This document shows, one piece after another, positions 39,408-51,613 of a DNA stretch of 64,000 nt. The notes below the pieces were generated by a model. That model did no database searches. It had not been told where the DNA came from and saw only the letters and a list, made by a program, of their open reading frames with translations. Position 1 is the stretch's first letter. Each line of letters begins with the position of its first letter. This stretch comes from Escherichia coli. Its GTDB lineage: Bacteria; Pseudomonadota; Gammaproteobacteria; Enterobacterales; Enterobacteriaceae. The DNA lies in assembly GCF_045037415.1 (NCBI RefSeq), contig NZ_CP173438.1. One strand, given 5' to 3'. The position numbers were made by a program, and so were the translations under genes.

Positions 39408-41393
39408 ATGAGTACCACAACACGTAAATTTAAAACCGTTATCACCGATACGGGTGCCAAAAAATTAGCTCAGGCAGCCGCGCCAGATGGTAAGCCTGTC
39501 CGCCTGACTCATATGGCCGTGGGCGACGGTGGCGGCACGTTGCCCACACCAGACAGTAAGCAGACCCGTCTGGTGCATGAGGTGTGGCGACATACTGTTA
39601 ATCGCGTCATCCTGGACGCAACACATCAGAACCGCATTATTGCGGAGCTGGTTATTCCTCCTGAAACGGGCGGATTCTGGATCCGGGAAATTGGTGTATT
39701 TGATGAGCACGGCGATTTAATCGCGGTGGGCAATACTGCCGAAAGTTACAAGCCAGCCGTTGCCGAAGGGTCCGGTCGTGCACAAACATTTCGCACCATT
39801 CTGACCGTATCCAGCACTGCCACCGTGGTGCTTACCGTGGATAACACCATGGTGATGGCCACAGTGGATTACGTGGATGACAAACTGAAAGAGCATGAAC
39901 AGTCACGACGTCACCCGGACGCCTCGCTGACCGCAAAAGGCTTTGTTCAACTCAGTAGCGCCACTAACAGCGTGTCTGAAACGCAGGCTGCAACGCCGAA
40001 AGCAGTAAAGGCCGCGTATGACCTTGCTAACGGTAAATATACTGCGCAGGATGCCAGCACGACGCGAAAAGGCCTTGTCCAGCTCAGTAGCGCCACCAAC
40101 AGCACGTCTGAAACGCAGGCTGCAACGCCGAAAGCAGTAAAGGCCGCGTATGACCTTGCTAACGCAAAATATACCGCTCAGGACGCCACGACGGCACAAA
40201 AAGGGATAGTCCAGCTCAGTAGTGCCACCAACAGCACGTCTGAAACACTGGCCGCGACATCGAAAGCTGTTAAGGCGGTAATGGATGAAACGAACAAGAA
40301 AGCGCCCTTAAATAGTCCTGCACTGACCGGAACGCCAACAACACCAACTGCGCGACAGGGAACGAATAATACCCAAATCGCAAGCACGGCTTTCGTTATG
40401 GCTGCGATTGCCGCCCTTGTAGATTCGTCACCTGATGCACTGAACACGCTGAACGAGCTGGCTGCGGCGCTGGGCAACGACCCGAATTTTGCGACCACCA
40501 TGACTAACGCGCTTGCGGGTAAGCAACCGAAAGATGCCACCCTGACGGCGCTGGCCGGACTTACTACTGCGGCAGGCAAGTTTCCGTATTTTACGGGGAA
40601 TGATGTCGCCAGCCTGGCAACCCTGACAAAAGTCGGGCGGGATATTCTTGCGAAATCGACCGTTGCTGCCGTTATCGAATACCTCGGTTTACGAGAACTC
40701 GGCACAAGCGGGGAGAAAATACCGTTACTCAGTACAGCGAATACCTGGACCAATCGACAAACATTCAGCGGTGGCCTTTCTGGGGAACTGTCCGGCAATG
40801 CCGCTACTGCAACAAAGCTGAAAACAGCACGAAAAATTGCTGGAGTTGGTTTTGATGGTTCTAGCGATATTTCAATTAGTGCCAAAAATGTCAATGCATT
40901 TGCACTCCGACAAACAGGTAATACTGTTAATGGTGATACATCCGTTGGATGGAATTGGGATAGTGGTGCATATAACGCCATGATTGGTGGTGCATCTGCA
41001 TTAATTCTTCACTTTAATATAAATGCTGGTAGCTGTCCTGCCGTACAATTCCGTGTGAATTATAAAAATGGTGGCATTTCCTACAGGTCGGCTCGTGATG
41101 GTTATGGGTTTGAATTAGGTTGGTCAGATTTCTATACCACGACACGAAAACCTTCAGCGGGAGATGTTGGTGCATATACGCGGACAGAATGTAACTCAAG
41201 GTTTATTACAGGTATTCGCCTTGGCGGTCTGTCATCTGTTCAGACATGGAATGGTCCCGGCTGGTCTGACAGGTCAGGTTATGTCGTTACGGGTTCAGTT
41301 AACGGAAACCGTGATGAATTAATTGATACAACACAGGCAAGGCCAATTCAGTATTGCATTAATGGGACGTGGTATAACGCGGGGAGTATTTAA
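39408..41393 (+). CDS. Tail fibre protein (P2 gpH-like); C-terminal third lies inside the invertible segment
   Basis: 661 aa; internal 44-aa tandem repeats; the gix-like crossover site at 40672..40697 lies inside the gene. Confidence 0.85.
   Translation: MSTTTRKFKTVITDTGAKKLAQAAAPDGKPVRLTHMAVGDGGGTLPTPDSKQTRLVHEVWRHTVNRVILDATHQNRIIAELVIPPETGGFWIREIGVFDEHGDLIAVGNTAESYKPAVAEGSGRAQTFRTILTVSSTATVVLTVDNTMVMATVDYVDDKLKEHEQSRRHPDASLTAKGFVQLSSATNSVSETQAATPKAVKAAYDLANGKYTAQDASTTRKGLVQLSSATNSTSETQAATPKAVKAAYDLANAKYTAQDATTAQKGIVQLSSATNSTSETLAATSKAVKAVMDETNKKAPLNSPALTGTPTTPTARQGTNNTQIASTAFVMAAIAALVDSSPDALNTLNELAAALGNDPNFATTMTNALAGKQPKDATLTALAGLTTAAGKFPYFTGNDVASLATLTKVGRDILAKSTVAAVIEYLGLRELGTSGEKIPLLSTANTWTNRQTFSGGLSGELSGNAATATKLKTARKIAGVGFDGSSDISISAKNVNAFALRQTGNTVNGDTSVGWNWDSGAYNAMIGGASALILHFNINAGSCPAVQFRVNYKNGGISYRSARDGYGFELGWSDFYTTTRKPSAGDVGAYTRTECNSRFITGIRLGGLSSVQTWNGPGWSDRSGYVVTGSVNGNRDELIDTTQARPIQYCINGTWYNAGSI
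39937..40290 (+). repeat. Three tandem 132-bp (44-codon) repeats within the tail-fibre gene
   Basis: Units begin at about 39937, 40069 and 40201, each encoding KG-VQLSSATNS-SETQAATPKAVKAAYDLAN-KYTAQDA; the third is diverged. Confidence 0.75.
40672..40697. promoter_or_regulatory. gix/cix-like invertase crossover site (left)
   Basis: ttatcgaatacctcggtttacgagaa, compared with recalled Mu gixL TTATCCAAAACCTCGGTTTACAGGAA; in inverted orientation to the site at 43420..43445. Confidence 0.7.
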
Positions 41394-41395
41394 CG

Positions 41396-41929
41396 ATGAT
41401 GCACTTAAAAAACATTACTGCTGGCAACCCTAAAACAAAAGAGCAATACCAGCTAACAAAGCAATTTAACATCAAATGGCTTTATTCAGCTGATGGAAAA
41501 AACTGGTATGAGGAACAAAAGAATTTCCAGCCAGACACTTTGAAAATGGTCTATGACCATAACGGCGTTATTATTTGTATTGAAAAGGATGTTTCAGCAA
41601 TTAATCCGGAAGGCGCAAGCGTCGTTGAATTACCTGATATTACAGCAAATCGCCGGGCTGATATTTCGGGGAAATGGATGTTCAAAGATGGCGTAGTGGT
41701 AAAGCGAACTTATACCGAGGAAGAGCAGAGGCAACAAGCGGAAAATGAAAAGCAGAGCCTGTTGCAACTTGTCAGGGATAAAACTCAGCTATGGGACTCA
41801 CAGCTACGGCTGGGCATCATTTCCGACGAGAATAAACAAAAATTAACCGAGTGGATGCTCTATGCGCAGAAAGTCGAATCCACAGACACCTCCAGCCTGC
41901 CAGTAACATTTCCCGAACAACCTGAATGA
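41396..41929 (+). CDS. Tail fibre assembly chaperone (P2 gpG-like), variant 1
   Basis: 177 aa, [40 protein letters not shown]... Confidence 0.8.
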   Translation: MMHLKNITAGNPKTKEQYQLTKQFNIKWLYSADGKNWYEEQKNFQPDTLKMVYDHNGVIICIEKDVSAINPEGASVVELPDITANRRADISGKWMFKDGVVVKRTYTEEEQRQQAENEKQSLLQLVRDKTQLWDSQLRLGIISDENKQKLTEWMLYAQKVESTDTSSLPVTFPEQPE

Positions 41930-41957
41930 GACAAGGCCCGATAACGGGCCTTAATTT

Positions 41958-42485
41958 TTATTCAGGCTTTTGTGGCCATTCAGGATTTGCCGTATCCACA
42001 CGGTTGACCAGAACACTGTAGCGTTCCCATGCTTCCAGTCGTGTGCGTTCCTCGTCTGTTGCCATATTCAGCCTGACAGCGCGTTCCAGCGGCTGGATGA
42101 CTGATTCAGCTTCGGAAAGCAATGCGGCCTTTTGTGATTCGGCCTGTTGTTGCTGTTCGTCAGCCGTATAAATCCGTTTAACCACAGCTCCGTCCTTAAA
42201 CATCCACTTACCGGAATCATCGGTCCGACGATTGGCCGTTATATCGGGAACCTCGACGACGCTAAAACCTTCGGGATTAAGCGTGGAGGCATCTCTGGTG
42301 ATGGCGACAATAATATTATTTTCATCGTAAACAATCTTTATGGTGTCTGGCTGAAAGTTTTTCACTTCCTCATACCAGTTTTTTCCGTCCTCAGAGTAAA
42401 GCCAGATAACTCCGTGTTTCTTTGTTAACTCATACTGTTCCAGTGTTTTAGCATTACCCGCTTTTATGTTCTTTAAGTGCATCAT
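41958..42485 (-). CDS. Tail fibre assembly chaperone, variant 2 (alternative cassette)
   Basis: 175 aa, [40 protein letters not shown]...; a paralogue of the + strand G gene inside the invertible segment. Confidence 0.8.
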
Positions 42486-42486
42486 A

Positions 42487-43419
42487 TTAAACGCTCGCTA
42501 CATTATACCAGGTGCCATTTATATACTTTTGAACGGGTCTGTAATAAACACCCGCTATATTATCGGCAGAGTTAGACCCTGTATCCTGAACATTAATACC
42601 AGACAATACATGACCTGAAGGGCACTGGAAATTCCATGTTCGCCAGTTGTTCACTCCATAATATTGCTGTGAACCAAGTCGAACATCTTTCACATAACGG
42701 GAATCAAAGTTACCGTAATCCGAGGGATTAACACGCCCCGTAATATTTATGGTCTTATTACTTTGAATGCTTCCGGGAACAAAGCGCATAACATGGACGT
42801 AATTAGCATAAACATCCAGATTACCATCGCCATTTTGTTTAAAGCCCGTGTCATTATCACCCAATACAATCGAATTACCGCCAAGAGCACTGGATGTTCC
42901 GATACCCAGTGCACCATTCAGTTGACCACCAGATAACGGCAGTGCACCAACATCTCCTGCTGAAGGTTTTCTGGTGGTGGTGTAAAATTCGGACCAGTCG
43001 GCTTCAAAACCATAACCATCACGGGCTGAACGATAAAAAATACCGCCATTTTTATAATTAATCCGAAACTGAGCTGCAGGACAACTTCCGTCTCCCATAT
43101 AAAAATGAATAATTAACGTTGATGCACCACCAATATTTGCGTTATAGGCTCCGCTACTCCAGTTCCATCCAACTGCTTTATCATTCGCAACGGTGCTTCC
43201 TGTTTTCCCTAAGGCAAACGCACCAACATGACTTGCTTTTAATGTGATATCGGAGGAACCATCAAAAGCCACATTGCTTATTTTCCTGGCAGTTTTTAAT
43301 TTTGCAGCTGTAGAAGCATTGCCGGATAGTTCACCAGAAAGGCCACCGCTGAATGTTTGTCGATTAGTCCAGGTATTCGCTGTACTGAGTAACGGTATTT
43401 TCTCCCCGCTTGTGCCGAG
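42487..43419 (-). other. Promoterless alternative tail-fibre C-terminal cassette
   Basis: ORF 42487..43272 is the in-frame part; the reverse complement of 43300..43420 nearly repeats H codons at about 40700..40800; expressed only after inversion. Confidence 0.65.
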
Positions 43420-43445
43420 TTCTCGTAAACCGAGGTTTTAAATAA
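43420..43445. promoter_or_regulatory. gix/cix-like invertase crossover site (right)
   Basis: ttctcgtaaaccgaggttttaaataa, compared with recalled Mu gixR TTCCTGTAAACCGAGGTTTTGGATAA. Confidence 0.7.
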
Positions 43446-43499
43446 TGGCCGTTTCTGGCCTGCATGGCATGATTTGCGCTTTTGGACGGGAGATTCAGT

Positions 43500-44099
43500 G
43501 TGCTGATTGGCTATGTAAGGGTATCAACAAATGACCAGAATACAGACCTGCAACGAAACGCTCTTGTTTGTGCAGGATGTGAACAAATATTTGAAGATAA
43601 ATTAAGCGGGACAAAGACAGACCGACCGGGATTAAAACGCGCTTTAAAGCGCCTTCAAAAAGGTGACACGCTGGTTGTCTGGAAACTGGATCGCCTCGGG
43701 CGAAGCATGAAACATCTGATTTCTCTCGTCGGGGAACTACGGGAGCGAGGGATTAATTTTCGCAGTCTGACCGACAGCATAGACACATCTTCTCCAATGG
43801 GGCGTTTTTTCTTCCACGTGATGGGTGCCCTGGCTGAAATGGAACGTGAATTAATTGTTGAACGTACACTGGCCGGGCTGGCGGCAGCGCGCGCAAGGGG
43901 GCGCACAGGCGGACGTCGACCGAAGCTGACAAAAGAACAGCATGAGCAAATAGCAAGGCTAATCAAAAACGGGCACGACAGAAAACAACTGGCAATAATT
44001 TACGGCATTGGCACATCGACGATTTATCGTTATCACCCTGTAGGCGATATACAGACTGAAGAAACAACCGGGCAGACTCAGGAAAATGAAAACCGCTAA
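43500..44099 (+). CDS. Serine DNA invertase (Gin/Pin/Cin/Hin family)
   Basis: GTG start gives MLIGYVRVSTNDQNTDLQRNALVCAGCEQIFEDKLSG..., close to recalled Gin/Pin; catalytic Ser in VRVSTNDQ. Confidence 0.85.
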   Translation: MLIGYVRVSTNDQNTDLQRNALVCAGCEQIFEDKLSGTKTDRPGLKRALKRLQKGDTLVVWKLDRLGRSMKHLISLVGELRERGINFRSLTDSIDTSSPMGRFFFHVMGALAEMERELIVERTLAGLAAARARGRTGGRRPKLTKEQHEQIARLIKNGHDRKQLAIIYGIGTSTIYRYHPVGDIQTEETTGQTQENENR

Positions 44100-44127: not shown

Positions 44128-44622
44128 TCAGAACAGCCCTTTAACTGAACTGGCCGCGCTGTTAAGAGATGATGTCACCTTATCTTTGAAGCCGGACAGC
44201 ATATCACTGAACGATGAGGATTGCAGGCGCTCCCGCAAATCCTCATCACAGCGTTCAAGAGTCAGTGAAAATTCTATCTTTTTCGCCTTACCGTAGCGAT
44301 CAAACTCGGAGCGGGTCGTATTCGTTTCAGTCAGGACATACATGCCGTAAATCTGCCCGACGCCATCAATCAAAGGCCAGGGTCGTCCTGTATACGCCTG
44401 CGTGGTCAGCAGCGACAGCGACACTTCGCCACCTGTAATTTCAGGATAAAGCACACCAGAAAGAACGATGCGATCATCACCTGCACCGATATACTGCCAG
44501 CTTGCTGAACGGTTAACGCGTTCATTTTTCACATGCCGCCAGCTTTTGTTTTGCTGTAACTGCTGATGCGGCAGCGTGCGCAGCTCAAAAACAAACATGC
44601 CGTAGATCATCATCATGGCCAT
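44128..44622 (-). CDS. Tail protein U (P2 gpU-like)
   Basis: 164 aa; ...QQLQQNKSWRHVKNERVNRSASWQYIGAGDD... parallels recalled P2 gpU. Confidence 0.8.
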   Translation of the reverse strand: MAMMMIYGMFVFELRTLPHQQLQQNKSWRHVKNERVNRSASWQYIGAGDDRIVLSGVLYPEITGGEVSLSLLTTQAYTGRPWPLIDGVGQIYGMYVLTETNTTRSEFDRYGKAKKIEFSLTLERCDEDLRERLQSSSFSDMLSGFKDKVTSSLNSAASSVKGLF

Positions 44623-44628
44623 GACTCC

Positions 44629-47472
44629 TCAATCTTTATCGTAAAAACTGCCACGCCCGGCACGGGCGCGCCGTTCCATTTCTGCCCTGACCATTTCACC
44701 GACCAGTTTCGCCAGTTCGCGGGGATTCTGCGTAACAACGTTATGCAGATGAACATGAATTTCACCACCAAATCCGGAGGCAACAGGCTCCCGGTTACGG
44801 GAAGTTACAGGAACTGATGCCACTGGAGATCGTATAGCCTCCGCCACCGGGCGGGAGCTGGCCGCAACAACAGGGACCAGCGCCGGAGGCAGCGGAGCCG
44901 GGACCACGGGTGTGATATTAATTGCGGGGGCAGGCTTACTGACCTGCGCAATCTTCCGCTCCTGCCACTCCCCACGAACAGCAAGTGCTCGGGGCAGGTT
45001 TTTAAAGACAATATCGCCGGGGCCAATGCGTTTTTTCGTCTCCTCAACCAGCTTACCTGTGTTATCAGCAATTTTGCTGAGTCTGCGCAGCGTACCGGTA
45101 TTGCTGTCTGTGAGCGGTTTATTGTCTTTGGGGTTATCACCTCCGGTGCCATTGCCATTTTCCACAGGCTTCGGCGGATTGATTTTCGCCAGGTCCCCCT
45201 GAAGCAAGGCAACCTTGTCCTGAAGAATGGCCGCACGCTGTGCGTCTTCGATTTTCTTGCGCGCCCTTTCCGCTTCATCCGGAAGCACACCAAGCTTTTC
45301 AAGTATCCACGCCAGCGTATCCAGCAACATTTTTGCAGGTGTCAGAACAAGTTGTAACGCACCGCCAAGAACGTTACCGAATATCTCGCCAGCACTGGTA
45401 CATTTATCCAGAGTTTCCTTGCTGGACTCCATCGGAGACAGCAGCGATTTAAACCAGTTAAACACCTGGCTGATCCCACTCCCGATTGCGTCAAAAACAG
45501 GACCAAACCGTTCAAAGGTTTCGCGCAACGGGGTCAGCCTTTCCATAATCCCGCTGAACACCCCGGCAAAAAATGCCCTGATGGGATCCCAGTATTTCCA
45601 GATGAGAACGGCAGCTCCGGCAAGCGCAGCCACGATAAGGCCGACCGGACTGAACAACGCCCCGATAGCGCCCCCCAGTAACGAAACGGAACCCGTCACC
45701 ATTCCCCATAGTGCTGGCAGGAGTCTGACAGCATTCATTGAACCGGTCAGGAGGGAAAAGCCAAGACGCAGTTTTGCCAGCGGGCCAGCAAGCACACCAA
45801 TAGCCAGCGACAACGAGCCAACCGTTGCAGTCATTGCCAGCAACGCACCGCCTGCTATCAGTAGCTGGCGCGTCAGTACCGGATGGGCCTGCGCCAGCGA
45901 GGTGATTTTTTCAAGCACCCGCGTGAGCCACTGCGTGACAGAACGCAGCGGACCGTCAACCAGATCACTGATGCGAATACGAAGACCTTCCCATGCGCTG
46001 TCGAGATTTTTCAGGTCCCCATCAAGATTATCGGCCATTACTTTTGCAACGCGATCGGCCTCTCCCCTTGCCCCCTGCAATTCTCTGGTCAGTTTTTGCA
46101 GCTCTCCTGAACCAGCCGCCGCAACAAGCGTCTGCAAACCAACGAACGCCTCTTCTCCGGCGATGTCCTTGAAGAAGGAAACCTGGTCCACCTGTCCGTA
46201 TTTTTGTGTCGCCTTATAGAGATCAAGCAGCACATCCTCCATCGGGCGCATTTTGCCTCTGGCGTCAGCAACTGACACCCCCAGCTCTTTCAGCGCATCA
46301 GCCGCAGCTTTTGGCGGTGATGCAAGGCGGGACAGACTTGCGCGCATGGCCGTACCAGCATCGCTTCCACGAAGACCATTATTGGCAAGCATCCCGGCCA
46401 TGGCTGCCGCTTCTTCAAGACTGATACCAAGTTTTGCGGCAACCGGACCGGTATACTTCATGGTTTCGCCCAGCGCGCGTAAATCAGTATTGGTCCGGGT
46501 GAATGCCGCTGTCAGCGTATCGCCAACCCGGTCCATTTGATCGGCTGTCAGGTTGAACTGTGTGAGGATATTGGAGCCTATATCAGCCGTCTCGCCGAGT
46601 TCGACGCCACCTGCCAGCGCCATATTAAGAACACCGGGCAATGCGGCCTGAATGGCCTGCGGAGTAAAACCAGCCATTGCCAGAAAGCTCTGCCCACTGG
46701 CGGCATCACTCGCAGTAAACTGTGTTTCAGAGCCAAGTTTTAACGCCTGCTCACGCAGCGCCTTAAACTGCGGGCTGTTTTTGTCGATTCGCGTCAGCGC
46801 CTGAACGCGGGACATCTCTTTGCCGAACCCGATCGCGGGCTGCAAAAAACGCCCGGCAGCATAGCCGCCCGCCGCTGCCGCACCAATTGCCAGCGCACCA
46901 CCTGTTTTCAGTTTTCCCGCGGTTTCCTGCGCGCGCGAATACCGCTCACGAGCCTGCGTTACACGCGCAAGCGCCTGCCGTTCGCGTTCAAGCTGGTTGT
47001 TGTATTGTTCGGTGCGTCTGATGGCCTGCTGGATGGTGTTATCGCTGCCTGTCAGGGAAATGCCGTGGCGTTTCAGTTCTCCGCCAAGCTCCCGCATTTT
47101 CTGAATTTCCCGTGTGCGCGATTCATTCAGGCGTTCAAGCCGGGTGCTTAACTGCTGCATCAGCTTTTGTTGTTTTTCGCTGAGCACTGTACCCGTGCGT
47201 TGTAACTGATTAAGGGCGTTAAGCTGGCGTCGTGCTTTCACGATACCCGCATCCGCTTTACTGACAGCGTCGCGGGCGCGCTCAAATGAACGCGCCTGAC
47301 GCTCGAGATTTTTGATCGCCCCCTGCGTTCGCTGAATGGAGTCACCAAACTGCCCCATCAGGCGGCGGGCGTTTTCGGCAGGCCGGGTCAGCCTGTCAAC
47401 GGCGCTGAAAGCGACCCGGATGTCAAGAGTCTTCATTATCTGCATTCCCGCTGCGAAGTGCCGCCCGCTCAC
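44629..47472 (-). CDS. Tail tape measure protein (P2 gpT-like)
   Basis: 947 aa, Ala/Gly-rich with coiled-coil N-terminal region and hydrophobic centre; downstream of E/E'. Confidence 0.85.
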   Translation of the reverse strand: MSGRHFAAGMQIMKTLDIRVAFSAVDRLTRPAENARRLMGQFGDSIQRTQGAIKNLERQARSFERARDAVSKADAGIVKARRQLNALNQLQRTGTVLSEKQQKLMQQLSTRLERLNESRTREIQKMRELGGELKRHGISLTGSDNTIQQAIRRTEQYNNQLERERQALARVTQARERYSRAQETAGKLKTGGALAIGAAAAGGYAAGRFLQPAIGFGKEMSRVQALTRIDKNSPQFKALREQALKLGSETQFTASDAASGQSFLAMAGFTPQAIQAALPGVLNMALAGGVELGETADIGSNILTQFNLTADQMDRVGDTLTAAFTRTNTDLRALGETMKYTGPVAAKLGISLEEAAAMAGMLANNGLRGSDAGTAMRASLSRLASPPKAAADALKELGVSVADARGKMRPMEDVLLDLYKATQKYGQVDQVSFFKDIAGEEAFVGLQTLVAAAGSGELQKLTRELQGARGEADRVAKVMADNLDGDLKNLDSAWEGLRIRISDLVDGPLRSVTQWLTRVLEKITSLAQAHPVLTRQLLIAGGALLAMTATVGSLSLAIGVLAGPLAKLRLGFSLLTGSMNAVRLLPALWGMVTGSVSLLGGAIGALFSPVGLIVAALAGAAVLIWKYWDPIRAFFAGVFSGIMERLTPLRETFERFGPVFDAIGSGISQVFNWFKSLLSPMESSKETLDKCTSAGEIFGNVLGGALQLVLTPAKMLLDTLAWILEKLGVLPDEAERARKKIEDAQRAAILQDKVALLQGDLAKINPPKPVENGNGTGGDNPKDNKPLTDSNTGTLRRLSKIADNTGKLVEETKKRIGPGDIVFKNLPRALAVRGEWQERKIAQVSKPAPAINITPVVPAPLPPALVPVVAASSRPVAEAIRSPVASVPVTSRNREPVASGFGGEIHVHLHNVVTQNPRELAKLVGEMVRAEMERRARAGRGSFYDKD

Positions 47473-47586
47473 GCCAGCTAACCACTTCGCCGGGCGTCAT
47501 CATGAAGATTTCGGCGGGCGACCAGTTGAAAATGGCGGCAATATCCGCCACCAGATCTTCGATGTGCTCAAAGCACACCAGGGTGA

Positions 47587-47961
47587 TTACGCTGCCGTCT
47601 CCTGCACGCTCTTCGCGCCAGAGTCTGGCTCGCTCATAAAATTTACAGCCACAGCGCACAACTGAATAAAATCGCGTGACGACATTTTTTTAATCATCAC
47701 TTCATCCAGTCGTGGCGAGGTCACGCGAGGCAACAGCGTGAACATGGTATCCGCTTTCAGATTCAGCACATCAGACAGCGACAGACCACGCAGGGATCCC
47801 GCCTGCTCAATAGCCCCGGTGATCTCCACATATGTGATTTTTTCGGCACCACGCTCAATTGGCCGGGAAAGTTTTACACCACGTTCGACAGCCATATCCT
47901 CACCTGACGTCACATCATCCGCTACGGTGTTATTCCGGGTTTCAGTATCGATATCTTTCAT
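47587..47961 (-). CDS. Tail assembly chaperone E (P2 gpE-like) with overlapping -1 frame E' extension (47423..47659)
   Basis: 124-aa ORF whose 3' end overlaps a -1 frame ORF running into T; A7 run at about 47685..47691 near the start of the shared window. Confidence 0.7.
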   Translation of the reverse strand: MKDIDTETRNNTVADDVTSGEDMAVERGVKLSRPIERGAEKITYVEITGAIEQAGSLRGLSLSDVLNLKADTMFTLLPRVTSPRLDEVMIKKMSSRDFIQLCAVAVNFMSEPDSGAKSVQETAA

Positions 47962-48016
47962 CAGTTGTCTCCTTTTCAGTCAGAGGCGACGCACTGCGCC
48001 GCCTGCATATTACTTA

Positions 48017-48529
48017 TCAGCCAAGCCCAAGCGCGGAACGAATGCGGTCAGGCACAATGTCCTTGCCGTCCTTCCGGTAGATGTGGTTCAACAGGTCGAT
48101 TTCCCACAGCGGGCGATCGTTAACGCTCAGCTTGTAGTAGGTGTTTTTGACAGCGTAAGTGTGTGATGTGGCTTCGCCCTGTTTGGCCTCCCCCATATCA
48201 ATTTCCGTCACACGCCCGCGCATCTCGATTTCATACAGATCGCTTTCTGCATCGGTGTAATATTCACCCGCAAAACGCAGCAGCGTGCCGTCAATCGTGC
48301 CGCCATACTTAAGGAACAGTGCACGAACAGCTCCCCCCATGACAAAGCTCGCATCAAGCGCGGAGTCGTCCAGACCGAGATCAATACTTACTGCTCCCAT
48401 CATGCCACCACCACGATAGCTGTCGGTTTTGCGCGTCAGTTTGGGCGGCGTGACGGATGTCACTTTACCCACTTCGTTTTCACCATCCACAAACAACGTA
48501 AAAAAGCGAAGATGTTTTGGTACAGCCAT
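48017..48529 (-). CDS. Tail tube protein (P2 gpFII-like)
   Basis: 170 aa (P2 FII is 172); position between sheath and E. Confidence 0.85.
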   Translation of the reverse strand: MAVPKHLRFFTLFVDGENEVGKVTSVTPPKLTRKTDSYRGGGMMGAVSIDLGLDDSALDASFVMGGAVRALFLKYGGTIDGTLLRFAGEYYTDAESDLYEIEMRGRVTEIDMGEAKQGEATSHTYAVKNTYYKLSVNDRPLWEIDLLNHIYRKDGKDIVPDRIRSALGLG

Positions 48530-49713
48530 CAGGCACCTCCCAGCACCGCAAATGCGGGACCAAAGAATTCATCAGTAAACGTCTGGTAAAGCTCCATGTC
48601 TTCCAGCGGGGGAACGGGCGTATATTTGTAGCGAATACGCACACGCCCCTGACGTAAATCCGTGGTGCCGTTATCCACCACGTCATACCAGCACTCCGCG
48701 CCAATCAGTTTCCCGGCAGTAACCAGCGAATCCAATTTTGCCCTGATGGCACTGATAACATCCTTCACGTTCGCAGGCGTCAGTGGACTGTCGATGGTTT
48801 CAAACTGCGCTTCCGCAATTGAATCAGCCAGCACCTGTGCGGTTCGGGTATACACCTCAAAGATGTAGGCGTTCGTTTCCGGTGTGCGGTTGCCCCAGAA
48901 GCGGAACCCGTTACGACGAATAATGGTCGTGATTTCTTTGTTGTTGAGGCTGTTGGCATCACTGTCTTCGGCCTGTAACGACCAGAACACATGCCTCGAC
49001 ATCCCCAGCACATTTTTAACCGGAACGTTGGACAGCGATTTGTGCCAGCCCTGCTCATGGTCAATGTACGCACGAAGGCCGCACGCATAAGCAGGCGCGG
49101 GGAACGTTTCGTTTTTGCCACTTTTCGGGTTGTAGGCGATGAAGTCAGGCCATAAGAGCATCACCTCACGTTCGTTGAATTTCTGGCGGTAGGTAATCGC
49201 CTCAGCCATCGTGTTACAACCATGACATGTGGCATACACAAACGCGCGCAGTTTACCCGCAATCACGCACAGGGATTTTGTCACCGCCTCCGTGTCCAGC
49301 TCCGGCGCGGCCAGAATACGCGGACGGTATCCGATGCTTTCATCCTGCTCTGCAACAAGCAGCGCATACATCCCCGTATAGCTGCCGTCAGATTCAGAAC
49401 CACCGATAACCAGTTGATCCTGCGTCCTACCGCCTTCTTCTTTGTGTTCAGCCACGCGAACGACGATCACTTTTGTGCTCACCTGGTCTGCGATAGCCTT
49501 AAGCGCACGATAAAGCGTCCCCGTAGTCCCGCATTTTCCCAGCACGTCATTGACGCGGGTCAGCAGTGTGGGCTTGTTCAGCGGGAACAGCTCCGCATCC
49601 GCATCATCCGCCGTTGCCACGATACCGATAACGCTGGAATCAACATCATTAATCGCTGTTACCAGGTCGGTACTTTCCGTGACACGGGCACCATGAAAAC
49701 GAGTTTCACTCAT
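48529..49713 (-). CDS. Tail sheath protein (P2 gpFI-like)
   Basis: 394 aa (P2 FI is 396); ATGA-coupled to FII. Confidence 0.85.
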   Translation of the reverse strand: MSETRFHGARVTESTDLVTAINDVDSSVIGIVATADDADAELFPLNKPTLLTRVNDVLGKCGTTGTLYRALKAIADQVSTKVIVVRVAEHKEEGGRTQDQLVIGGSESDGSYTGMYALLVAEQDESIGYRPRILAAPELDTEAVTKSLCVIAGKLRAFVYATCHGCNTMAEAITYRQKFNEREVMLLWPDFIAYNPKSGKNETFPAPAYACGLRAYIDHEQGWHKSLSNVPVKNVLGMSRHVFWSLQAEDSDANSLNNKEITTIIRRNGFRFWGNRTPETNAYIFEVYTRTAQVLADSIAEAQFETIDSPLTPANVKDVISAIRAKLDSLVTAGKLIGAECWYDVVDNGTTDLRQGRVRIRYKYTPVPPLEDMELYQTFTDEFFGPAFAVLGGA

Positions 49714-51472: not shown

Positions 51473-51613
51473 ATGTCGCAAAAATCGCTTACGGCCATCA
51501 CATTCTGCGTGACGGCAATCCTCATCATCTGGATGCTGCACGGTTCGCTGTGTGAAATACGGATGAGTTTCTGGGGAGCGGAGTTTGCGGCGTTCTTACA
51601 GTGTAAGCAGTAA
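51473..51613 (+). CDS. Hok/Gef-family type I toxin (46 aa), with overlapping mok-like frame 51370..51555
   Basis: MSQKSLTAITFCVTAILIIWMLHGSLCEIRMSFWGAEFAAFLQCKQ: N-terminal TM then the SLCEIR signature and an E-AAF block as in Hok; RBS aggag. Confidence 0.6.
   Translation: MSQKSLTAITFCVTAILIIWMLHGSLCEIRMSFWGAEFAAFLQCKQ

What the first reader, a model, noticed from the sequence alone, without database searches (positions are those of the whole stretch)
47587..47691. Conserved E/E' overlapping-frame arrangement upstream of the tape measure gene
The E ORF and a -1 frame ORF (47423..47659) share a 105-nt window beginning just after an in-frame stop in the -1 frame. The window contains an A7 run (plus-strand T7 at about 47685..47691) and a TTTT run that could serve as slippery sites, as in the P2 E/E' frameshift.
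Basis: partly seen in the sequence, partly recalled or inferred. Interest (0 to 1): 0.25.

Follow-up and report, generated by a model that had tools for sequence, protein, structure and literature searches.

The report
P2-type tail chaperone frameshift site

Summary
On the minus strand, gene E (47961..47587, 124 aa) is overlapped by a -1 frame that is open from 47689 to 47423. It lies between the tail tube gene FII and the tape measure gene T of a complete-looking P88-like (Xuanwuvirus, Peduoviridae) prophage next to serS.

The -1 ORF is a Pfam GpE (E') domain (2.9e-12). A fusion made by a -1 slip aligns end to end with P2 E+E' (8e-29).

The only in-frame X_XXY_YYZ heptamer in the overlap is A_AAT_TTT (47644..47638). 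All 86 related loci carry such a heptamer at the same conserved Phe codon. Amino-acid conservation switches from the 0 frame to the -1 frame there.

The P2-type T_TTT_TTG is absent here because TTG has become ATG. The sister P88 lineage has both heptamers, overlapping. The A7 run is not the conserved site, because P88-type relatives have a -1 stop between it and the heptamer.

No conserved stimulatory RNA structure was found. Public records annotate E' as a free-standing 51-aa ORF, which is probably an annotation error.

Verdict: a known mechanism and a new member of it, with a slip site moved by one codon. Interest is low.

The parts
47587..47961 (-). Gene E (124 aa plus stop), the tail assembly chaperone read in the 0 frame.
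   Evidence: ORF list. phrog_103 'tail protein' 4.1e-36. Weak Pfam Phage_TAC_7 match, E = 0.003, below the cut-off. Aligns with P2 E. PGAP calls the same ORF 'tail protein'.
47969..47974 (-). Shine-Dalgarno-like AAGGAG, 7 nt before the E start codon.
   Evidence: Read directly from the sequence.
47638..47644 (-). Proposed slippery heptamer A_AAT_TTT (0 frame GTA AAT TTT; -1 frame AAA TTT).
   Evidence: It is the only in-frame X_XXY_YYZ in E. The same aligned codon carries a canonical heptamer in all 86 related loci. H_HH.U_UU.Y motifs are among the most efficient in E. coli (PMC4066793).
47423..47638 (-). E' extension as read after the shift: first codon TAT 47638..47636, stop TGA 47425..47423, 71 codons. 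It gives a 179-aa E+E' of about 20.0 kDa.
   Evidence: Pfam PF06528 Phage_P2_GpE 2.9e-12. phrog_1756 1.9e-38 on residues 104-177 of the fusion. BLASTP of the fusion against P2 E+E' 8e-29, one alignment across the junction. Mass.
47423..47689 (-). The whole open stretch of the -1 frame (88 codons), bounded upstream by the TAA at 47692..47690.
47685..47691 (-). A7 run (0 frame AAA AAA A). It is not the conserved shift site, but it is indel-prone: some public assemblies have A8 here.
   Evidence: A -1 stop lies downstream of it in P88-type relatives. A8 alleles.
44629..47436 (-). Tape measure gene T. Its ATG at 47436 overlaps the end of E' by 14 nt.
   Evidence: Pfam PhageMin_Tail 1.6e-56. PGAP coordinates.
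48017..48529 (-). Tail tube gene FII, immediately upstream of E.
   Evidence: Pfam Phage_tube 2.1e-45.

Best explanation
E and E' are the tail assembly chaperone pair of a P88-like (Xuanwuvirus) P2-family prophage.

Most ribosomes read E to its stop and make a 124-aa protein. A minority slip back one base on A_AAU_UUU (47644..47638). At that point tRNA-Asn in the P site moves from AAU to AAA, and tRNA-Phe in the A site moves from UUU to UUU. These ribosomes continue in the -1 frame to the TGA at 47423 and make a 179-aa E+E' protein with the junction ...AVAVNF|YERARLW...

By analogy with P2 E/E+E' and lambda G/GT, both proteins would bind the tape measure protein through the shared E part. The E' part would recruit the tube/sheath assembly, and a fixed low ratio of long to short product would be needed for tail assembly.

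Shown here: the gene order, the homology of both halves, the in-phase heptamer, and its conservation. Inferred: that the shift happens, its rate, and the protein functions.

Compared with P2, the slip site sits one codon further upstream. P2's U_UUU_UUG is destroyed here (TTG to ATG). The sister P88 lineage carries both heptamers overlapping (A_AAT_TTT_TTG), which looks like the intermediate in that move.
For: - **Gene order.** FI-FII-E-E'-T-U, with D and ogr nearby, and Pfam matches for each. Phage P88 has the same organisation.
- **E' homology.** PF06528 2.9e-12.
- **Fusion homology.** The modelled fusion aligns with P2 E+E' from end to end in one BLASTP alignment (33% identity, 8e-29; alignment A1). 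The same modelling rule reproduces the annotated 142-aa P2 E+E'.
- **Heptamer.** A_AAT_TTT is the only in-frame canonical heptamer in E.
- **Conservation of the site.** All 80 IMG/VR relatives and all 5 reference phages (P2 included), like the window itself (86 loci, 55 distinct junctions), have a canonical heptamer on the conserved Phe codon. It lies 45-51 nt before the E stop (66 nt in one clade, 21 nt in P2). Every sequence that lacks T_TTT_TTN has X_XXT_TTY one codon upstream.
- **Upstream -1 stops.** The -1 frame has a stop 0-10 codons upstream of that Phe in 22 of 55 distinct sequences, and directly adjacent in 5.
- **Frame switch in conservation.** Mean pairwise amino-acid identity is 0.48 (0 frame) against 0.23 (-1 frame) upstream of the Phe codon, and 0.40 against 0.58 downstream. 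A conserved ER.GDG motif appears only in the -1 frame.
- **Motif efficiency.** In E. coli, H_HH.U_UU.Y motifs are among the most efficient and R_RR.U_UU.Y is singled out as efficient. U_UUG is a weak tetramer (PMC4066793).
- **A working phage has this junction.** Phage phiSM has the identical junction and forms plaques and lysogens (PMC6456863).
- **The allele is common.** The window-type junction is in 598 of 5426 complete E. coli genomes.
- **Co-transcription.** No minus-strand promoter-like or terminator-like site lies between E and T.
Against: - There is no direct evidence of the fusion protein for this phage or any Xuanwuvirus.
- No conserved downstream RNA structure was found (RNAalifold gave 0 pairs). 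The local hairpin 8-14 nt downstream is not better than shuffles (z from -0.5 to -1.7). No obvious upstream Shine-Dalgarno-like stimulator is present. Efficiency may therefore be low, although P2 is also reported to lack a stimulator (PMC3091744).
- In a single sequence a heptamer in the overlap is expected 12% of the time by chance.
- The E domain matches Pfam Phage_TAC_7 only below its cut-off, and NCBIfam has no model for it.
- In this lineage the -1 frame is also open at the A7 run and at a U_UUU tetramer (47671..47668), so minor alternative shifts are not excluded.
Confidence: 0.8

Rival explanations
1. The shift into the -1 frame happens at the A7 run (47691..47685). It could occur by ribosomal slippage of tRNA-Lys or by RNA polymerase adding an A. 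The product would be a 179-aa fusion ...MIKK|NVVTRFYSVVRCGCKFYERARLW...
For: In this lineage the -1 frame opens exactly at the run. A7 runs are depleted in E. coli genes, possibly because of transcriptional slippage (PMC4066793). Public assemblies with A8 encode exactly this fusion as a single ORF (P0001, P0003, P0004).
Against: In phase the run reads T_AAA_AAA, which is not a canonical heptamer. P88-type relatives keep the A7 run but have a TGA in the -1 frame six codons later. More distant relatives have no A run. The product would lose the conserved DF..L....F end of the E domain and gain 16 residues that are not conserved in the -1 frame (identity 0.23).
Confidence: 0.06
2. E' is a separate 51-aa protein that starts at GTG 47578, as PGAP and the phage GenBank records annotate it ('GpE family phage tail protein').
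For: Annotation in RefSeq E. coli and in phages P88 and Chuche. An in-frame GTG exists.
Against: No Shine-Dalgarno sequence lies at a usable distance; the nearest AGGAG is 20 nt upstream. The start codon is not conserved: the Klebsiella/Reipivirus relatives read ACC GTT GCG there. The -1 frame is conserved upstream of that GTG (W..ER.GDG), which an independent start would leave untranslated. In P2 the same ORF is annotated as part of the E+E' frameshift product.
Confidence: 0.05
3. The shift happens by single-tRNA slippage on the other TTTT run (GAU UUU AUU, 47671..47668).
For: U_UU.U is a shift-prone tetramer when a stimulator is present (PMC4066793). The -1 frame is open there in this lineage.
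Against: Most P88-type relatives read GAC TTT, which is not a tetramer, and have the -1 stop TGA at that spot. The product would lose conserved E residues. Tetramers without a stimulator were barely above background.
Confidence: 0.03
4. Nothing is expressed: the prophage is a relic and the overlap is inherited baggage.
For: One tail fibre gene next to the invertase is flagged as partial by PGAP.
Against: The partial fibre ORF is the alternative end of an invertible segment flanked by 170-nt inverted repeats, as in P88. The region has the full P88 gene order across about 37 kb. All tail ORFs are intact. A phage that is 97.8% identical over this stretch is infectious.
Confidence: 0.04

Closest known systems
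Bacteriophage P2 E / E+E' (-1 frameshift in the FETUD tail operon; Christie et al. 2002, cited in PMC3091744; annotated in NC_001895)
   Same: - Same position between FII and T.
- Both halves are homologous (33% identity over the whole fusion, 8e-29).
- The -1 extension ends a few bases inside T.
- The shift falls at the same conserved Phe codon.
- No conserved stimulatory RNA structure.
   Different: - The heptamer is A_AAT_TTT, not T_TTT_TTG, and sits one codon upstream.
- E carries about 22 extra N-terminal residues (124 against 91 aa).
- E continues 16 codons past the site, against 7 in P2.
- E+E' is 179 aa, against 142 aa.
- The frameshift is not annotated in any Xuanwuvirus record seen.
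Phage P88 and other Xuanwuvirus phages (P884B11, phiSM, 503458, Chuche)
   Same: Same genus-level genome organisation. The region is 85-98% identical in DNA. phiSM and P884B11 share the window's junction region at 97.8% identity, and phiSM has the same heptamer.
   Different: P88, Chuche and 500465-2 read A_AAT_TTT_TTG, which is two overlapping heptamers. The window has only the first, because TTG is ATG.
Phage lambda gpG / gpGT and the conserved tail-assembly-chaperone frameshift of tailed phages (Levin 1993; Xu, Hendrix and Duda 2004, 2013, 2014; reviewed in PMC5009743)
   Same: Two proteins from one start by a -1 shift near the end of the gene that precedes the tape measure gene. A low, fixed ratio of long to short product. 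A chaperone role in tail assembly.
   Different: No sequence similarity to lambda G/T was tested or expected. Lambda has a non-contractile tail and uses G_GGA_AAG (my own knowledge). The functions of E and E' are inferred by analogy only.
X_XXU_UUY slippery heptamers measured in E. coli (Sharma et al. 2014, PMC4066793)
   Same: A_AAU_UUU belongs to the H_HH.U_UU.Y class, which is listed among the most efficient motifs in E. coli.
   Different: Those values come from reporter constructs with IS911 or IS3 stimulators. No stimulator is evident here.

Membership tests
P2-type E / E+E' tail chaperone frameshift pair | The gene pair lies between the tail tube gene (FII) and the tape measure gene (T). 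| tested here: met
   FII 48529..48017, E 47961..47587, T 47436..44629, all on the minus strand.
P2-type E / E+E' tail chaperone frameshift pair | The upstream ORF is homologous to gpE. | tested here: met
   BLASTP of the fusion against P2 E+E' covers the E part (8e-29). phrog_103 4.1e-36. Pfam Phage_TAC_7 gives only 18 bits against a cut-off of 25.
P2-type E / E+E' tail chaperone frameshift pair | The -1 frame extension is homologous to E' (Pfam PF06528). | tested here: met
   PF06528 46.3 bits against a cut-off of 23, E = 2.9e-12.
P2-type E / E+E' tail chaperone frameshift pair | An in-phase slippery heptamer lies in the overlap, at a position conserved among relatives. | tested here: met
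   A_AAT_TTT at 47644..47638. 86 of 86 loci have a heptamer on the same Phe codon.
P2-type E / E+E' tail chaperone frameshift pair | The specific P2 slip sequence TTTTTTG. | tested here: not met
   The window reads AAT TTT ATG. TTTTTTG is present in P88, P2 and most relatives, but not in this lineage or in the Klebsiella CCCTTTC lineage. This is a property of P2 itself rather than of the family.
P2-type E / E+E' tail chaperone frameshift pair | Two proteins with a common N-terminus are actually produced, and both are needed for tail assembly. | not testable with these tools
   This needs protein analysis and genetics. The only indirect support is that phiSM, which has the same junction, is infectious.
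Transcriptional slippage sites (homopolymer runs read with an extra base by RNA polymerase) | A long A or T run at the frame junction that is conserved among relatives and leads into the open alternative frame. | tested here: not met
   The A7 run is confined to Xuanwuvirus. In the P88 lineage it leads into a -1 stop. The proposed slip site has only T4.

The most novel reading that the evidence does not exclude
The A7 run at 47691..47685 could be a second, DNA- or RNA-level switch on the same gene pair. In this lineage only, the -1 frame is open from the run. Alleles with A8 occur in at least two independent public samples, where the extra A is the only indel in 1.3 kb. These alleles hard-wire an E-E' fusion and abolish free E. 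A7/A8 length changes, or polymerase slippage on the run, could then turn tail production off and on in a prophage population, on top of the ribosomal frameshift.
Probability: 0.05. Interest if true: 0.45.

Novelty: new member of a known kind. Interest (0 to 1): 0.15.

Why it matters
The main value is for annotation. In RefSeq E. coli genomes and in every Xuanwuvirus phage record seen, E' is either called as a free-standing 51-aa 'GpE family' protein or not called at all. About 1,400 of the 5,426 complete E. coli genomes carry this gene pair, so the correct 179-aa joined product is missing from a very large number of records.

There is also a small evolutionary point. The family shows a slip site moving by one codon through an intermediate with two overlapping heptamers: T_TTT_TTG only, then X_XXT_TTT_TTG, then X_XXT_TTY only. 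This happened at least twice, in the AAA and CCC lineages. It suggests that in P88-type phages the upstream heptamer, which is the more efficient class in E. coli, may already be the working site. The mechanism itself is textbook.

Tried and rejected
- **Downstream stimulatory RNA structure.** Single-sequence folds of 53-100 nt gave z-scores from -0.5 to -1.7. RNAalifold on 18 diverse junctions gave no pairs. I rejected this as a conserved feature.
- **Upstream Shine-Dalgarno-like stimulator.** None was seen by eye within 20 nt upstream of the heptamer.
- **Internal promoter or terminator between E and T.** None on the minus strand.
- **A7 run as the site.** Rejected; see the rival explanations.
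- **Solved structures.** A profile of E+E' found nothing meaningful in the PDB (best E = 0.74, MarR). I did not run structure prediction because it would not bear on the frameshift question.
- **NCBIfam.** No model matches E or the fusion.
- **Christie et al. 2002 (PMC135442).** The paper is not held in the library. What is said here about P2 rests on the RefSeq annotation and on PMC3091744.
- **Full-length fusion proteins in the protein database.** I first took these as possible annotated frameshift products. They turned out to be ordinary ORFs from assemblies with 1-2 nt indels in the A or T runs.

Full report
**What is there**

On the minus strand the window carries a P2-family tail operon:
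- sheath FI (49713..48529);
- tube FII (48529..48017);
- a 124-aa ORF (47961..47587);
- tape measure T (47436..44629);
- U (44622..44128).

A DNA invertase, an invertible tail-fibre segment, D, ogr, a hok/gef gene and then serS lie around it. The DNA is 97.8% identical to Xuanwuvirus P884B11 and to Citrobacter phage phiSM, 85% identical to phage P88, and 100% identical to E. coli ST131 chromosomes. P88 has the same gene order, including D on the opposite strand. The arrangement is therefore native to the genus and not a rearranged relic.

**Checking the observation**

E runs from ATG 47961 to TAA 47589..47587 and is preceded by AAGGAG. The ORF 47659..47423 is in the -1 frame of E. That frame has a TAA at 47692..47690 and is open from 47689 to the TGA at 47425..47423. 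The A7 run is at 47691..47685. There are two TTTT runs, at 47671..47668 and 47641..47638.

**What it is**

The -1 ORF matches Pfam PF06528 (Phage P2 GpE, the E' part) at 2.9e-12. E matches phrog_103 at 4e-36 but reaches Pfam Phage_TAC_7 only below its cut-off.

P2's own record annotates E, E+E' and the site of the -1 frameshift at TTTTTTG. I joined the frames at an in-phase heptamer in each of six phages. This rule reproduces P2's annotated 142-aa E+E' and gives a 179-aa product for the window. That product aligns with P2 E+E' from end to end in one BLASTP alignment (33% identity, 8e-29; alignment A1).

**Where the shift occurs**

The only in-frame X_XXY_YYZ heptamer in E is A_AAT_TTT at 47644..47638. 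On its own that is weak, since 12% of shuffles of the overlap contain one.

I fetched 80 related loci from IMG/VR and 5 reference phages, which with the window makes 86 loci and 55 distinct junction sequences. Every one has a canonical heptamer on the same conserved Phe codon. It lies 45-51 nt before the E stop (66 nt in one clade, 21 nt in P2). Among the 80 IMG/VR loci the types are:

| Heptamer(s) at the Phe codon | IMG/VR loci |
|---|---|
| TTTTTTG only | 19 |
| AAATTTT only | 17 |
| AAATTTT + TTTTTTG overlapping | 17 |
| CCCTTTC only | 15 |
| CCCTTTT + TTTTTTG overlapping | 8 |
| TTTTTTA | 2 |
| TTTTTTC | 2 |

Three further results point to the same codon:
- Every sequence that lacks T_TTT_TTN has X_XXT_TTY one codon upstream.
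- The -1 frame carries a stop 0-10 codons upstream of the Phe codon in 22 of 55 distinct sequences.
- Amino-acid conservation switches frame at the Phe codon. Upstream it is 0.48 in the 0 frame and 0.23 in the -1 frame. Downstream it is 0.40 and 0.58, with an ER.GDG motif only in the -1 frame.

The window lineage reads GTA AAT TTT ATG, whereas P88 reads GTA AAT TTT TTG. The P2-type heptamer is therefore lost here and the upstream one remains.

Measurements in E. coli place H_HH.U_UU.Y motifs among the most efficient. They rate the U_UUG tetramer as weak (PMC4066793).

**The A7 run**

In phase the run reads T_AAA_AAA, which is not canonical. P88-type relatives keep the run but have a TGA in the -1 frame a few codons later. 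More distant relatives have no such run. A shift there would replace the conserved end of the E domain with unconserved sequence. I therefore reject it as the programmed site.

Some public assemblies do have A8 at this spot, as the only indel in 1.3 kb. They encode the corresponding fusion as a plain ORF. I cannot tell whether this is a sequencing error or a real allele.

**Stimulators**

No conserved RNA structure lies downstream. A local hairpin is no better than shuffles. This agrees with what is reported for P2 and the Burkholderia P2-like phages (PMC3091744).

**Is the allele functional?**

phiSM has the same heptamer and E tail and is a plaque-forming, lysogenising phage (PMC6456863). 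The window-type junction occurs in 598 of 5426 complete E. coli genomes and the P88-type in 820. It is not a rare broken allele.

**How it probably works**

This part is inferred. Most ribosomes finish E. A minority slip -1 on A_AAU_UUU and make E+E' (179 aa, about 20.0 kDa, junction ...AVAVNF|YERARLW...). By analogy with lambda G/GT (PMC5009743) and P2, both proteins act as tape-measure chaperones. The extension links the complex to tube polymerisation.

**Comparison and novelty**

This is a member of the P2 E/E+E' family by position, by homology of both halves, and by a conserved in-phase heptamer. It differs from P2 in the heptamer (moved one codon), in a longer E N-terminus, and in a longer 0-frame tail. 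Variation of the heptamer among tail chaperone frameshifts is already well known, so this is a new member of a known kind.

The practical point is annotation. PGAP and the phage records call E' as a separate 51-aa protein from GTG 47578, or omit it. That start has no usable ribosome binding site and is not conserved.

Noticed in passing
window 47468..47501: A 34-nt stretch in E', just upstream of the T start, is 100% identical to a sequence inside the type I-E CRISPR array of E. coli GmM066 (NZ_CM183652.1 4375146-4375179, next to cas1e/cas2e). It looks like a spacer against this phage group.
   Followed up: partly
window 47685..47691; loci L090 and L091 (A8 at L090 672..679): Public assemblies from at least two independent samples (ERR13669365, ERR13868096), and ENA-derived proteins P0003 and P0004, have A8 instead of A7. 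This fuses E and E' into one 176-179-aa ORF. In L090 and L091 it is the only indel in 1340 bp. It could be a real allele or a homopolymer sequencing error.
   Followed up: partly
window 47423..47578: RefSeq/PGAP and the P88 and Chuche records annotate E' as a free-standing 51-aa 'GpE family phage tail protein' starting at GTG 47578. The phiSM, ST16-OXA48phi5.4 and phiT5282H records omit it. None annotates the frameshift.
   Followed up: yes
window 40668..43449, with invertase 43482..44099 (+): This is an invertible tail-fibre segment. It has 170-nt inverted repeats (40668-40837 and 43280-43449, 89% complementary), two oppositely oriented tail-fibre C-termini and assembly genes, and a Hin/Gin-type invertase alongside. 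PGAP flags the inverted fibre end as a partial gene.
   Followed up: partly
window 51473..51613 (+): A hok/gef-family toxin gene lies between ogr and serS at the prophage end, as in P88, where it is annotated 'MokW-like host killing'.
   Followed up: no
L025 (IMGVR_UViG_2534681835_000034): This locus is a mosaic junction. It has P88-type sequence on both sides but ATG instead of TTG after the Phe codon. So the loss of TTTTTTG either arose twice or moved by recombination.
   Followed up: no
window 47962..48016 (-): The FII-E intergenic spacer contains a G+C-rich inverted repeat (AGGCGGCGCAGTGCGTCGCCT) with no T tract. It was not called as a terminator. Its function is unknown.
   Followed up: no
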